The translations under genes and the position numbers were made by a program. Below are positions 27,454 to 64,000 of a stretch of DNA of 64,000 nt, piece by piece. This DNA is from Eledone cirrhosa (lineage: Eukaryota). A model generated the notes under the pieces. That model worked only from the letters and a program-made list of their open reading frames with translations, searched no databases and was not told the DNA's origin. The stretch's first letter is position 1, and every line of letters starts with the position of its first letter. The stretch covers positions 17,174,001 to 17,238,000 of the forward strand of contig OZ024749.1 of assembly GCA_964016885.1 (NCBI GenBank), in the 5' to 3' direction.

Positions 27454-27564
27454 GTACTGACAATTGTTTCGTTGATCAGGTGTGTCTAGAGTTCGCTAAT
27501 CGCTTGAGGTTGCGTCAATCGATCTCCAATACATTGTTTACCACTGGTAAACACATCAGAGCAC
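27454..27564 (-). ncRNA. Degenerate type I hammerhead motif (A9->U)
   Basis: Minus strand: gtgct CTGATGT gtt..long insert..aac GAAA caattg TC agtac. Confidence 0.5.
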
Positions 27565-28176
27565 GTAGATATGAAAATAGTTCACTCGAGGCAAGACTTA
27601 TATTGAAAAGTATCGTAACATCAAAACAATAACATCAATAATAAAATAGCGTATAATTAAAACAATAACATCAATAGTAAAACATGTATGGTAAATAGAT
27701 AGAGGAGTAAAATATAAGATAGGGTACATTAAAAAATAATAAGAAGAAGAAAATGAGGAAATGGAGAATACAAAGAAATAAAAGAAATAAAGGAGTGAGA
27801 GAGTGTACGTAGGATTAGATTTTAGTAGTTTTTTGAGGAAGTGCTTTTTGGTGCTAACACGAGAAACCAGATTTGAGATGTAGAACAATTTGTGTGGAGG
27901 GTCCGATAAAAGAAAAGACAATAAATTAGAGATTAATTTATGTATACTTGTATGATATTCATGGGTTGACAGGGCGTTTGATAAACGTTTGTTGTAGATG
28001 TTTTGCTGGTTGTTCTATCTTAATGAAGTTGATGGAGAGAGGGTGGAAGAAGTGTACAGAGATTTATGGTCCAGTGATGAGTTGGCAGTTTGATAGCTAA
28101 TAGTGGTGCGATAGTATGTATTCTATATGTTAAAATCTAGGTGGTTCAGTACTAACTTTGGGATTGCTGGTTCAAA

Positions 28177-28645
28177 TCATGGTGGTTTGAAGTTCGTAAA
28201 TCTAGTAGCTATTTTATGCCTACAGAAAATGGATCGTTCTATTTTGCTGTTAAGCAGCATCCTATCGTGCCTTAAAATATGTAGCAGTTCTAAATTACAG
28301 AGCCCGCAGTGGGACATACTGTTACTGTAGGCTTTTGCTGTCGATAATTTCGACCAGCTAATCTTATATTCTAGGTTTTTGTCCTTAAGCTGCCAGATTT
28401 TATTGGTGAGCGTTGTAGAGTTCTCCAGTGCGCGGTTCCTCATGGAGTGTCTGTCGACGTACCATCTTTTTTTAAACTCCCCAGCTGTGGAACCTATGTA
28501 GTGCCAAGTAGAGTTGCCTGAATTCACAGTACACAGGTATACCATGCTCGAATCCAGGCTACTATTCCGTAGTGGGCACTTATCTAGTAGGGGGCAATTA
28601 CAATCTGAGGTTTTATTTCGTGCAGGTTCGTCGTTGCGGTTTTGT
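28177..28645 (-). mobile_element. Naiad-type PLE 3' fragment (GIY-YIG endonuclease), truncated at a TA tract
   Basis: CNCPLLDKCPL, MVYLC..HYIGST..FKKRW, CGLCNLE, CRHK. Confidence 0.88.
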
Positions 28646-59516: not shown

Positions 59517-62500
59517 TGCTGATGAATGAAATCCAACCGTGACCATCTCCACTGAAAGTTTTCATGAAATAGTCTTTTAAGACTATACAGAGCATTTGAT
59601 GTTATTCCAAATTGAAGGATAAGTGTTTCAAACTGTATTTTATCATGAGTTAAAGGTCTATAGATTTTTCCCTGGATTTTACTAAATTCTGTGGATGAAT
59701 TTATATCCTGATTCTCTTTTGAGATGAGTTTGAGTTATTTTTCCTAAATCTTTCGTTAACTACTTTTCCCATCTTGACGTTATAGTCGCATATATGTTAT
59801 AGAATGCCGTTAGCTTCTTGCTAAAACAATCTCTATACCTTTCATTTATATTTATACTCGGATTCTTTTCCTAGAGTGCTTAAACTATCTGTGACTAATC
59901 CCGGTTTTTTTCATAAAAACTGTGATAATTATTGCTATTTTGCTGAACTCCTTTGTAGAGTTTTTTTCAGAATGTATTTGACTGCTATTTCTTGTAAATA
60001 AACATTCACTTCCATCCTGACGTCACTAGCCCCGTTTTTTCCTCATGTGCTTTTTCATAAATACACATGAAGGCGAACTAGCCAGTTTTAGAATTCCCTT
60101 TTTCGGATTATACTACTGTGAGAGCCCTGGTTTCTGTTGAGCTCTGCTGATGAATGAAATCCAACCGTGACCATCTCCACTGAAAGTTTTCATGAAATAG
60201 TCTTTTAAGACTATACAGAGCATTTGATGTTATTCCAAATTGAAGGATAAGTGTTTCAAACTGTATTTTATCATGAGTTAAAGGTCTATAGATTTTTCCC
60301 TGGATTTTACTAAATTCTGTGGATGAATTTATATCCTGATTCTCTTTTGAGATGAGTTTGAGTTATTTTTCCTAAATCTTTCGTTAACTACTTTTCCCAT
60401 CTTGACGTTATAGTCGCATATATGTTATAGAATGCCGTTAGCTTCTTGCTAAAACAATCTCTATACCTTTCATTTATATTTATACTCGGATTCTTTTCCT
60501 AGAGTGCTTAAACTATCTGTGACTAATCCCGGTTTTTTTCATAAAAACTGTGATAATTATTGCTATTTTGCTGAACTCCTTTGTAGAGTTTTTTTCAGAA
60601 TGTATTTGACTGCTATTTCTTGTAAATAAACATTCACTTCCATCCTGACGTCACTAGCCCCGTTTTTTCCTCATGTGCTTTTTCATAAATACACATGAAG
60701 GCGAACTAGCCAGTTTTAGAATTCCCTTTTTCGGATTATACTACTGTGAGAGCCCTGGTTTCTGTTGAGCTCTGCTGATGAATGAAATCCAACCGTGACC
60801 ATCTCCACTGAAAGTTTTCATGAAATAGTCTTTTAAGACTATACAGAGCATTTGATGTTATTCCAAATTGAAGGATAAGTGTTTCAAACTGTATTTTATC
60901 ATGAGTTAAAGGTCTATAGATTTTTCCCTGGATTTTACTAAATTCTGTGGATGAATTTATATCCTGATTCTCTTTTGAGATGAGTTTGAGTTATTTTTCC
61001 TAAATCTTTCGTTAACTACTTTTCCCATCTTGACGTTATAGTCGCATATATGTTATAGAATGCCGTTAGCTTCTTGCTAAAACAATCTCTATACCTTTCA
61101 TTTATATTTATACTCGGATTCTTTTCCTAGAGTGCTTAAACTATCTGTGACTAATCCCGGTTTTTTTCATAAAAACTGTGATAATTATTGCTATTTTGCT
61201 GAACTCCTTTGTAGAGTTTTTTTCAGAATGTATTTGACTGCTATTTCTTGTAAATAAACATTCACTTCCATCCTGACGTCACTAGCCCCGTTTTTTCCTC
61301 ATGTGCTTTTTCATGAATACACATGAAGGCGAACTAGCCAGTTTTAGAATTCCCTTTTTCGGATTATACTACTGTGAGAGCCCTGGTTTCTGTTGAGCTC
61401 TGCTGATGAATGAAATCCAACCGTGACCATCTCCACTGAAAGTTTTCATGAAATAGTCTTTTAAGACTATACAGAGCATTTGATGTTATTCCAAATTGAA
61501 GGATAAGTGTTTCAAACTGTATTTTATCATGAGTTAAAGGTCTATAGATTTTTCCCTGGATTTTACTAAATTCTGTGGATGAATTTATATCCTGATTCTC
61601 TTTTGAGATGAGTTTGAGTTATTTTTCCTAAATCTTTCGTTAACTACTTTTCCCATCTTGACGTTATAGTCGCATATATGTTATAGAATGCCGTTAGCTT
61701 CTTGCTAAAACAATCTCTATACCTTTCATTTATATTTATACTCGGATTCTTTTCCTAGAGTGCTTAAACTATCTGTGACTAATCCCGGTTTTTTTCATAA
61801 AAACTGTGATAATTATTGCTATTTTGCTGAACTCCTTTGTAGAGTTTTTTTCAGAATGTATTTGACTGCTATTTCTTGTAAATAAACATTCACTTCCATC
61901 CTGACGTCACTAGCCCCGTTTTTTCCTCATGTGCTTTTTCATAAATACACATGAAGGCGAACTAGCCAGTTTTAGAATTCCCTTTTTCGGATTATACTAC
62001 TGTGAGAGCCCTGGTTTCTGTTGAGCTCTGCTGATGAATGAAATCCAACCGTGACCATCTCCACTGAAAGTTTTCATGAAATAGTCTTTTAAGACTATAC
62101 AGAGCATTTGATGTTATTCCAAATTGAAGGATAAGTGTTTCAAACTGTATTTTATCATGAGTTAAAGGTCTATAGATTTTTCCCTGGATTTTACTAAATT
62201 CTGTGGATGAATTTATATCCTGATTCTCTTTTGAGATGAGTTTGAGTTATTTTTCCTAAATCTTTCGTTAACTACTTTTCCCATCTTGACGTTATAGTCG
62301 CATATATGTTATAGAATGCCGTTAGCTTCTTGCTAAAACAATCTCTATACCTTTCATTTATATTTATACTCGGATTCTTTTCCTAGAGTGCTTAAACTAT
62401 CTGTGACTAATCCCGGTTTTTTTCATAAAAACTGTGATAATTATTGCTATTTTGCTGAACTCCTTTGTAGAGTTTTTTTCAGAATGTATTTGACTGCTAT

Positions 62501-64000
62501 TTCTTGTAAATAAACATTCACTTCCATCCTGACGTCACTAGCCCCGTTTTTTCCTCATGTGCTTTTTCATAAATACACATGAAGGCGAACTAGCCAGTTT
62601 TAGAATTCCCCTTTTTCGGATTATACTACTGTGAGAGCCCTGGTTTCTGTTGAGCTCTGCTGATGAATGAAATCCAACCGTGACCATCTCCACTGAAAGT
62701 TTTCATGAAATAGTCTTTTAAGACTATACAGAGCATTTGATGTTATTCCAAATTGAAGGATAAGTGTTTCAAACTGTATTTTATCATGAGTTAAAGGTCT
62801 ATAGATTTTTCCCTGGATTTTACTAAATTCTGTGGATGAATTTATATCCTGATTCTCTTTTGAGATGAGTTTGAGTTATTTTTCCTAAATCTTTCGTTAA
62901 CTACTTTTCCCATCTTGACGTTATAGTCGCATATATGTTATAGAATGCCGTTAGCTTCTTGCTAAAACAATCTCTATACCTTTCATTTATATTTATACTC
63001 GGATTCTTTTCCTAGAGTGCTTAAACTATCTGTGACTAATCCCGGTTTTTTTCATAAAAACTGTGATAATTATTGCTATTTTGCTGAACTCCTTTGTAGA
63101 GTTTTTTTCAGAATGTATTTGACTGCTATTTCTTGTAAATAAACATTCACTTCCATCCTGACGTCACTAGCCCCGTTTTTTCCTCATGTGCTTTTTCATA
63201 AATACACATGAAGGCGAACTAGCCAGTTTTAGAATTCCCTTTTTCGGATTATACTACTGTGAGAGCCCTGGTTTCTGTTGAGCTCTGCTGATGAATGAAA
63301 TCCAACCGTGACCATCTCCACTGAAAGTTTTCATGAAATAGTCTTTTAAGACTATACAGAGCATTTGATGTTATTCCAAATTGAAGGATAAGTGTTTCAA
63401 ACTGTATTTTATCATGAGTTAAAGGTCTATAGATTTTTCCCTGGATTTTACTAAATTCTGTGGATGAATTTATATCCTGATTCTCTTTTGAGATGAGTTT
63501 GAGTTATTTTTCCTAAATCTTTCGTTAACTACTTTTCCCATCTTGACGTTATAGTCGCATATATGTTATAGAATGCCGTTAGCTTCTTGCTAAAACAATC
63601 TCTATACCTTTCATTTATATTTATACTCGGATTCTTTTCCTAGAGTGCTTAAACTATCTGTGACTAATCCCGGTTTTTTTCATAAAAACTGTGATAATTA
63701 TTGCTATTTTGCTGAACTCCTTTGTAGAGTTTTTTTCAGAATGTATTTGACTGCTATTTCTTGTAAATAAACATTCACTTCCATCCTGACGTCACTAGCC
63801 CCGTTTTTTCCTCATGTGCTTTTTCATAAATACACATGAAGGCGAACTAGCCAGTTTTAGAATTCCCTTTTTCGGATTATACTACTGTGAGAGCCCTGGT
63901 TTCTGTTGAGCTCTGCTGATGAATGAAATCCAACCGTGACCATCTCCACTGAAAGTTTTCATGAAATAGTCTTTTAAGACTATACAGAGCATTTGATGTT
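59517..64000 (+). repeat. 628-bp tandem array, >7 near-identical units, one hammerhead per unit (retrozyme-like); continues off window
   Basis: CTGATGA at 59519, 60147, 60775, 61403, 62031, 62660, 63288, 63916. No ORF >=60 aa in the track. Confidence 0.95.
60141..60221 (+). ncRNA. Type I hammerhead of the 628-bp unit
   Basis: gctctg CTGATGA atgaaa-(28-nt loop)-tttcat GAAA tagtct-ttta-agacta TA^ cagagc; three perfect 6-bp helices; cut predicted after 60215. Confidence 0.93.

What the first reader, a model, noticed from the sequence alone, without database searches (positions are those of the whole stretch)
27454..64000. Eight hammerhead families co-clustered with Naiad retroelements in a (TA)n-rich nest
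Seen: HHR or HHR-like motifs of different sequence at 27454(-), the Naiad pLTR (8 copies), 33645(-)/48328(-), 34423/49144, 35143/49657, the 590-bp unit (3), 54910(-)/57920(-), 58851 and the 628-bp unit (8). Most short 'unique' islands between TA tracts carry one, typically within tens of nt of a TA tract. None was convincing in the first 27 kb. Inference: the region is a landing pad where autonomous Naiads and several non-autonomous ribozyme RNAs repeatedly insert into (TA)n, i.e. a microsatellite-targeted PLE/retrozyme system.
Basis: partly seen in the sequence, partly recalled or inferred. Interest (0 to 1): 0.85.

Follow-up and report, generated by a model that had tools for sequence, protein, structure and literature searches.

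The report
Penelope retroelement pile-up in TA repeats
This stretch of an animal (likely octopus) genome is a pile of cut-short ends of seven Penelope-type jumping genes and two non-coding tandem repeats, most carrying predicted hammerhead ribozymes and all joined by their tail ends to TA repeats, likely because their enzymes insert there; the pattern runs through the whole genome and is mostly a known one.

Summary
The motifs are real: 19 type I hammerhead matches in 27-64 kb against 0.1 in shuffles. There are nine families, not eight; six fit a full hammerhead, three are defective family-wide. The autonomous element is not a Naiad: it has a C-terminal GIY-YIG and Hydra-clade motifs. Seven of the nine families are 5'-truncated 3' ends of protein-coding Penelope-like elements (five Hydra-type, one Neptune-like, one unplaced); only the 590 and 628 units are ORF-less retrozymes. 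Every family tested is high-copy, with one or a few fixed 3' ends fused to (TA)n. In 800 kb sampled across the genome, 51 of 62 hammerheads have TA within 200 nt downstream (null 0.20-0.23), which extrapolates to about 230,000 motifs. The locus is a dense but ordinary nest, inflated by a 6.6-kb duplication. TA-targeting, hammerhead-bearing Hydra elements are already published for octopus. Less known: the retrozymes carry the Penelope insertion signature (fixed TA-fused ends, two start sites and 5' inversions in one family, a 29.5-unit array in the other), and one family has a roughly 70-residue insertion in its reverse transcriptase.

The parts
27253..28647 (-). 5'-truncated Hydra-type PLE (family 27454): end of GIY-YIG ORF at 28177-28620, hammerhead-like motif at 27454-27564 with core CUGAUGU and long stem II, 3' end fused to TA
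28714..30853 (+). Decayed Hydra-type RT-endonuclease copy ending in the TA tract; no hammerhead detected
   Evidence: (65% DNA identity to the main ORF over 574 nt)
32016..33550 (-). Family H1 (Hydra-type) 3' UTR and pLTR, hammerhead core at 32115
33551..33904 (-). 3' end of a Neptune-like PLE (family 33681): intact hammerhead core with stems II and III, no stem I
34213..34576 (+). 3' end of a Hydra-type PLE (family 34427), U3-A8 hammerhead with weak stems, predicted cleavage after 34520
35084..35393 (+). 3' end of an unplaced C-terminal-endonuclease PLE (family 35145): hammerhead core and stem II only
35447..38623 (-). Family H1 main copy: 5'-truncated 555-aa RT-GIY-YIG ORF at 36950-38617, long 3' UTR, hammerhead core at 35543, near 3' end fused to TA
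38624..40141 (+). Inverted partner of the H1 copy, hammerhead core at 39954, ending at the far 3' site (the 'tail')
40163..41784 (+). 590-bp ORF-less retrozyme: inverted piece 40163-40360, then 2.4 tandem units; U3-A8 hammerheads at 40317(-), 40873, 41463; TA at both outer ends
42546..43379 (+). H1 3' piece with hammerhead core at 43192; shares its downstream flank with the 54542 copy (local duplication)
45190..48022 (+). H1 copy truncated inside RT, hammerhead core at 47925
48234..54729 (.). Local duplicate of 33551-40141 (families 33681, 34427, 35145 and the H1 copy with its inversion)
54910..55080 (-). 3' end of a Hydra-type PLE (family 54959), full hammerhead, cut 4 nt after the cleavage site by TA
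55399..57147 (-). Diverged H1 subfamily copy, hammerhead core at 55496
57880..57994 (-). Second piece of family 54959, G at the cleavage position
58570..58957 (+). 3' end of a young Hydra-type PLE (family 58856), U3-A8 hammerhead whose minimum-energy fold is the three-way junction; TA 17 nt after the cleavage site
59518..64000 (+). 628-bp ORF-less retrozyme array with a canonical hammerhead per unit; continues past the window to position 78072, 29.5 units at 99.4-100% identity, TA at both ends

Best explanation
The region is a nest of 5'-truncated copies of seven protein-coding Penelope-like families and two ORF-less tandem retrozymes, each fused at a fixed 3' end to (TA)n, likely because the GIY-YIG endonuclease nicks TA repeats and the reverse transcriptase likely starts copying inside the RNA, downstream of the predicted hammerhead. 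Shown: family identity, linked ORFs, fixed 3' ends, TA polarity, inversions, genome-wide clustering. Inferred: (1) the endonuclease nicks (TA)n; (2) the nicked end primes at one of a few internal sites 16-270 nt past the hammerhead cleavage site, in what is also the leader of the next ORF, probably helped by 2-5 nt of UA/AU overlap; (3) copying stops early, giving short 'islands', often with an inverted second piece; (4) each insertion leaves TA beside it, so later insertions stack up, and slippage and unequal exchange add duplications; (5) the 590 and 628 RNAs borrow this machinery, most simply as circles or uncleaved multimers, since each array holds more than one unit and its units share private variants. 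Hammerhead cleavage is probably not needed for targeting or mobility of the coding families: three spread with defective motifs.
For: ORFs upstream in the same orientation: 58856 (788 aa), 34427, 27454, 54959 through an inverted copy, 33681 and 35145, H1. TA after the motif: 30 of 30 copies within 96 nt (58856), 28 of 30 within 118 (54959), 29 of 30 within 90 (33681), 24 of 25 within 189 (34427), 24 of 25 within 227 (27454) (these counts include the window's 1-2 copies), 22 of 23 within 266 (35145). 628: 38 of 39 scored arrays end at unit position 333-339, the 39th does so after an internal deletion (hand count), and 5' ends are scattered; 9 of 9 distinct arrays with the 3' end in view run into TA. 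590: 18 of 18 distinct 3' flanks are TA, at two sites, 10 of 18 with an inverted piece. Genome sample: TA within 200 nt 3' of 51 of 62 hammerheads against 0.20 (genome) or 0.23 (same block), p about 1e-22; 5' side 19 of 62. Other-family hammerheads downstream of 154 copies: 50 against 16 expected. Substitutions within arrays 0.13% against 0.46% between (628, 9 arrays), 0.50% against 1.1% (590, 24 loci). Read-through sequence begins with TA or AT overlap of 2 nt or more at 11 of 12 ends scored by eye. Published parallels: Hydra clade inserts into (TA)n; Poseidon RT starts at two internal sites and does not need hammerhead cleavage in vitro.
Against: No activity was measured. Only the 628 and 58856 motifs fold into the hammerhead junction as their minimum-energy structure; 7 of 9 do not. 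Some 5' junctions, notably of family 58856, show no TA, which simple insertion into a long tract does not predict. Poseidon initiates at sites not homologous to the cut DNA, so the overlap seen here may be chance in AT-rich DNA; I ran no formal null for it. No protein-coding parent or shared pLTR was found for either retrozyme among 335 loci searched, so the helper family is unknown. Fetched copies were the best matches to the window's copies and over-represent its subfamilies. Clade calls rest on motifs and by-eye comparison with published alignment rows, not on a tree.
Confidence: 0.8

Rival explanations
1. One reading: a special landing pad where autonomous Naiads and many non-autonomous ribozyme RNAs insert.
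For: Many hammerhead families next to TA; cephalopod Naiads are listed with a (TA)n preference; the nest has about five times the genome's hammerhead density and TA content in the top 4 of 80 blocks.
Against: Endonuclease is C-terminal in every ORF recovered; seven of nine families are coding PLE ends; nests are genome-wide.
Confidence: 0.04
2. The 3' TA tracts are partly made by the elements: the telomerase-related RT would copy a short UA motif repeatedly before extending, so TA is a product rather than only a target.
For: TA is strongly 3'-polar; ends coincide with internal UA/AU; some 5' junctions lack TA.
Against: Many 5' junctions are TA too, including most 628 arrays; cutting near the edge of a tract explains the rest; my automated 5' count was invalid because the references carried TA flanks.
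Confidence: 0.15
3. The 590 and 628 arrays are satellites that grew by unequal crossing-over from a stranded pLTR, not products of their own retrotransposition.
For: The 29.5-unit array is far longer than the 1.5-8 units seen elsewhere; homogeneity within arrays can also come from DNA-level expansion; this model is discussed by Li et al. 2026.
Against: Dozens of dispersed arrays on many chromosomes share one or two exact TA-fused 3' ends, scattered 5' ends and inversions. DNA-level growth may well explain the length of the window's array (about even odds) but not the dispersal.
Confidence: 0.1
4. Insertion is untargeted; elements collect in TA-rich DNA because they are tolerated or duplicated there.
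For: The window does contain local duplications; hammerhead counts rise with TA content per block (rho 0.43).
Against: Nucleotide-exact fusion of TA to fixed 3' ends in young (97-100% identical) copies, and enrichment that survives a same-block null.
Confidence: 0.04

Closest known systems
Hydra clade of Penelope-like elements, including Hydra-1_Obim from Octopus bimaculoides (Craig et al. 2021, PMC8557442; read: passages, sections 6 and 11, supplement passages)
   Same: C-terminal GIY-YIG, RWK-type and DKT motifs, CxCX5C linker, CxxC and CxH near the end, canonical hammerheads, insertion into (TA)n; family 54959 resembles Hydra-1_Obim in its N-terminus and hammerhead stem III by eye.
   Different: Five Hydra-type families (38-49% identical where compared) in one 37-kb nest, some at 99% identity with 1,000-4,000 first-look candidates; longer 3' UTRs (1.4 kb in H1); one family has a fixed A9U core.
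Naiad clade (same paper)
   Same: TA preference, partial tandems, inversions, tails.
   Different: Naiads have an N-terminal endonuclease, CxC domain, DKA motif and no canonical hammerhead; the ORFs here do not fit.
Animal non-LTR retrozymes (Cervera and de la Pena 2020, PMC7229834, passages; Li et al. 2026, bioRxiv 10.64898/2026.07.22.740005, parts 1-3 of 5)
   Same: Non-coding tandem units with one type I hammerhead each, coexisting with PLEs; arrays up to tens of units.
   Different: Units of 590 and 628 bp are longer than the 170-400 nt first described (inside the 51-972 bp range of Li et al.); the passages read argue for PLE mobilisation from co-occurrence and pLTR homology, whereas here it is read from junctions.
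Poseidon from Anolis carolinensis in vitro (Frangieh et al. 2024, PMC11167929; parts 1-2 of 4)
   Same: Two internal RT start sites downstream of the hammerhead that define the 'tail'; AT-rich targets; hammerhead dispensable for insertion.
   Different: Tails here are 45-165 nt rather than 30-40, targets are strict (TA)n, and start sites overlap TA by a few bases.
PLE hammerheads with U3-A8 core and palindromic stem III (Cervera and de la Pena 2014, PMC4209133; parts 1-2 of 4)
   Same: U3-A8 variant, unpaired base before stem II, palindromic stem III suited to dimers.
   Different: Stems II here are long (31-75 nt); two families have a stable stem III.

Membership tests
Naiad | GIY-YIG N-terminal to RT | tested here: not met
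   Endonuclease motifs follow RT in all ORFs recovered
Naiad | DKA motif, no canonical hammerhead | tested here: not met
   DKT in H1, 58856, 34427; full hammerheads
Hydra clade (H1, 58856, 34427, 27454, 54959) | C-terminal GIY-YIG with CxCX5C linker, CxxC and CxH | tested here: met
   for 54959 the linker is seen in a related copy (L218) only
Hydra clade (H1, 58856, 34427, 27454, 54959) | RWK-type and DKT motifs, no insertion in fingers | tested here: met
   RWR or RWK and DKT in H1, 58856, 34427; motif A-B spacing 59-60 aa; N-terminus not recovered for 27454
Hydra clade (H1, 58856, 34427, 27454, 54959) | Hammerhead in pLTR; insertion into (TA)n | tested here: met
   family 27454 has a variant core
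Hydra clade (H1, 58856, 34427, 27454, 54959) | Phylogenetic placement with reference Hydra RTs | not tested
   Reference sequences seen only as supplement text
Neptune clade (33681) | DKG, CX2-5CxxC linker, CCHH GIY-YIG at C-terminus | tested here: met
   (L225, L235), Pfam RVT_1 and weak GIY-YIG; end resembles the Neptune1_Ap row by eye
Neptune clade (33681) | Separation from Nematis by RT phylogeny | not tested
   no references in hand
Neptune or Nematis (35145) | Canonical RT without insertion between motifs A and B | tested here: not met
   spacing 126-133 aa in the relative P0003 and nearly all of 120 homologues against 56-60 in the other families; family 35145 itself was recovered only from inside this insert onward (65% identical to P0003)
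Non-LTR retrozyme (590, 628) | Tandem non-coding units, type I hammerhead in consecutive units | tested here: met
   longest stop-free frame 84-86 aa; hammerheads per unit
Non-LTR retrozyme (590, 628) | Expressed as self-cleaved linear and circular RNA | not testable with these tools
   needs RNA reads or bench work
Type I hammerhead | Core plus stems I-III | tested here: inconclusive
   met for six families, not met for 33681, 35145, 27454
Type I hammerhead | Self-cleavage | not testable with these tools
   bench assay; Li et al. saw cleavage in 1 of 9 predicted Xenopus elements

The most novel reading that the evidence does not exclude
The 590 and 628 retrozymes are circular RNAs copied by a TA-targeting Penelope enzyme by rolling-circle reverse transcription primed through a few bases of UA pairing, once for 29.5 turns (18.6 kb); self-feeding TA nests have made this genome about the richest in hammerheads yet counted (about 230,000); and family 35145 belongs to an undescribed, widespread Penelope lineage with a C-terminal endonuclease and a telomerase-sized insertion in the RT fingers.
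Probability: 0.25. Interest if true: 0.75.

Novelty: new member of a known kind. Interest (0 to 1): 0.45.

Why it matters
Which enzyme moves animal retrozymes, and whether the template is a circle, is open in the papers read. This genome offers near-intact young Hydra-type ORFs, a simple target, mapped start sites and two very young retrozymes, so the question can be tested directly. It also suggests that Penelope elements track a large share of the TA microsatellite (4.6% of sampled bases). The nest as such is an expected product of published biology.

Tried and rejected
Rfam scan: no hammerhead hit, only repeat artefacts. Pfam: nothing for the Hydra-type ORFs. Automated count of TA at 5' junctions rejected after viewing the junctions: the references carried TA flanks, so boundaries were misplaced. 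The 11-nt distance for family 35145 is an internal TA run, redone. Nine background hits from one AT-rich satellite (L301) and one overlapping hit were dropped before the count of 62 (72 raw). Search for a coding parent of 590/628 among held loci found only an 82% relative of 628 without ORF. Search for stem I in other subfamilies of 33681: absent in 20 of 20. Sequencing runs: no RNA holder listed; contigs laid on the 628 unit show many variants but cannot show ends or circles. The structure prediction for the 35145 lineage never finished, so the fold of the insertion is open; PDB sequence search gave only weak RT hits. Literature searches showed no paper counting hammerheads in a cephalopod or describing retrozyme junctions in TA; the library lacks most subscription papers and Repbase, and bioRxiv supplements were not seen. 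Five short motifs looked up for the 35145 lineage were absent from Craig's supplement, which is weak evidence only. Earlier scan notes: none for this genome or protein.
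Full report
Setting. The window is G000:C9:17174001-17238000 in a 3.0-Gb genome. Zinc-finger clusters and a 71% top protein hit to Octopus vulgaris suggest an octopus-like host (inference). The first 27 kb is TA-poor (0.6% in tracts of five or more units); 30-59.5 kb is 15.6% TA, against 4.6% in the genome sample, where 4 of 80 blocks reach 15%.

Are the motifs real? My type I descriptor found 19 hits in 27-64 kb against 0.1 in shuffles and one weak hit before 27 kb. 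Six families pass. Three of them (590, 58856, 34427) use the U3-A8 core, a variant already reported in PLE hammerheads. In copies fetched from the genome the descriptor was met by 29 of 30 (58856), 30 of 30 (54959), 21 of 25 (34427) and by none for 33681, 35145 and 27454. Family 33681 is odd: a 31-base core with stems II and III occurs 2,001 times exactly, varying only at N7 in the pattern (control 0), while flanks diverge and stem I is absent in 20 of 20 further copies. That looks like selection on something other than cis cleavage (inference). Only the 628 and 58856 motifs fold as hammerheads at minimum energy.

What carries them? The window's long ORF has RT followed by a GIY-YIG domain with a CxCX5C linker, CxxC and CxH, and full-length copies add RWR and DKT. 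These are the Hydra-clade marks in Craig et al. 2021; Naiads have the endonuclease in front and lack canonical hammerheads. Longer copies show that 58856, 34427, 27454 and 54959 are 3' ends of four more Hydra-type families, 38-49% identical where compared. Craig's supplement already lists an octopus Hydra element with (TA)n preference and a hammerhead. Family 33681 is Neptune-like; family 35145 is a C-terminal-endonuclease PLE whose relatives have a DKS motif and 126-133 residues between RT motifs A and B, about 70 more than the other families, in nearly all of 120 listed homologues. I could not place or fold it. The 590 and 628 units have no ORF over 86 aa and no coding parent among held loci: they fit the retrozyme definition.

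Is TA targeted? Each family has 400-4,000 first-look candidates on many chromosomes (not copy numbers). Copies end at one or a few fixed points after the hammerhead and run into (TA)n: 30 of 30, 28 of 30, 29 of 30, 24 of 25, 24 of 25 and 22 of 23; 5' ends vary. The retrozymes do the same: 38 of 39 scored 628 arrays stop at unit position 333-339 (hand count), and 18 of 18 distinct 590 flanks are TA at two sites, 10 with an inverted piece (identical pure-TA flanks collapse, so 18 is a low count of the 24 or so loci). In 80 evenly spaced 10-kb blocks (58 from the four largest chromosomes) I kept 62 of 72 hits; three shuffles gave 0, 0 and 2. TA lies within 200 nt downstream of 51 of 62, against 0.20-0.23 expected, and upstream of 19 of 62; within 100 nt the counts are 33 and 4. 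Some hits are inverted pairs of one insertion, so the p value is overstated, but the effect is large. The sample extrapolates to about 232,000 motifs (161,000-315,000 by block bootstrap), against 126,247 reported for the far larger axolotl genome with another descriptor.

Is this place special? Little. Background blocks hold up to five hammerheads, and 37 stem types appear among 62 hits. Downstream of 154 family copies elsewhere, other families occur at 0.24 per kb against 0.078, and 5' junctions often show another family's 3' end plus TA. The window is in the upper tail and is padded by a 6.6-kb duplication and smaller ones.

Mechanism. The 3' ends lie 16-270 nt past the predicted cleavage site, in sequence that in tandem copies leads into the next ORF. 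Two ends per family, with the far one often on the inverted partner (35543 against 39954), match the PLE 'tail' that Frangieh et al. traced to two internal RT start sites, with hammerhead cleavage dispensable in vitro. So the template is either uncleaved at this hammerhead or a circle joined there, as Cervera and de la Pena proposed. For the retrozymes, units in one array share private variants, as expected from one circular or homogeneous template. The window's array has 29.5 units at 99.4-100% identity between TA tracts; one long rolling copy or later DNA-level growth are about equally likely. Short TA/AT overlaps at most start sites hint at priming by pairing, unlike Poseidon; this is suggestive only. 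Whether some TA is added by the RT cannot be settled without empty alleles.

Verdict. Observation largely right, labels wrong, novelty moderate. The nest is the expected footprint of TA-targeting PLEs. The junction evidence that retrozymes ride PLE machinery, the hammerhead density and the unplaced lineage are worth following. An earlier scan note on a TA-inserted, tRNA-bearing tandem repeat in another genome agrees in pattern but was not checked and is not support.

Noticed in passing
L242:381-2717 (+), L231:658-2190 (-); window 35084-35393: Widespread PLE lineage with DKS motif, C-terminal GIY-YIG and about 70 extra residues between RT motifs A and B; 188 homologues at E<=1e-20, including octopus and sea cucumber proteins. 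Craig et al. state that canonical C-terminal-endonuclease PLEs lack this insertion.
   Followed up: partly
window 33651-33681 (-); L361-L380: Invariant 31-base hammerhead core without stem I across diverged subfamilies of a Neptune-like element (2,001 exact matches); could be a protein-binding or trans-acting RNA.
   Followed up: partly
window 19717-23783 (+): C2H2 zinc-finger gene of 649 aa with about 21 tandem fingers, followed by decaying finger repeats.
   Followed up: no
window 15986-19086 (-): Broken helicase and replication-protein frames resembling a Helitron (label recalled, not tested).
   Followed up: no
window 34-5242 (-), 9236-10829 (-), 25641-26813 (-): Fragments of other non-LTR retroelements (endonuclease, RT, zinc-knuckle ORF); not classified.
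   Followed up: no
window 13246-14645: 49-bp minisatellite, 29 copies.
   Followed up: no
window 41800-41870, 43408-43480, 54760-54830 and many locus flanks: A short non-hammerhead island recurring beside TA here and in flanks of unrelated loci, probably the extreme 3' tail of another TA-targeting family.
   Followed up: no
L301:7670-8200: AT-rich satellite that repeatedly matches the U3-A8 hammerhead descriptor; treated as a false positive.
   Followed up: no
runs X5, X6 on window 60269-60517: Contigs from two other coded organisms hold a nearly identical 210-246-base part of the 628 unit at low depth; contamination, diet or a close relative cannot be told apart.
   Followed up: no
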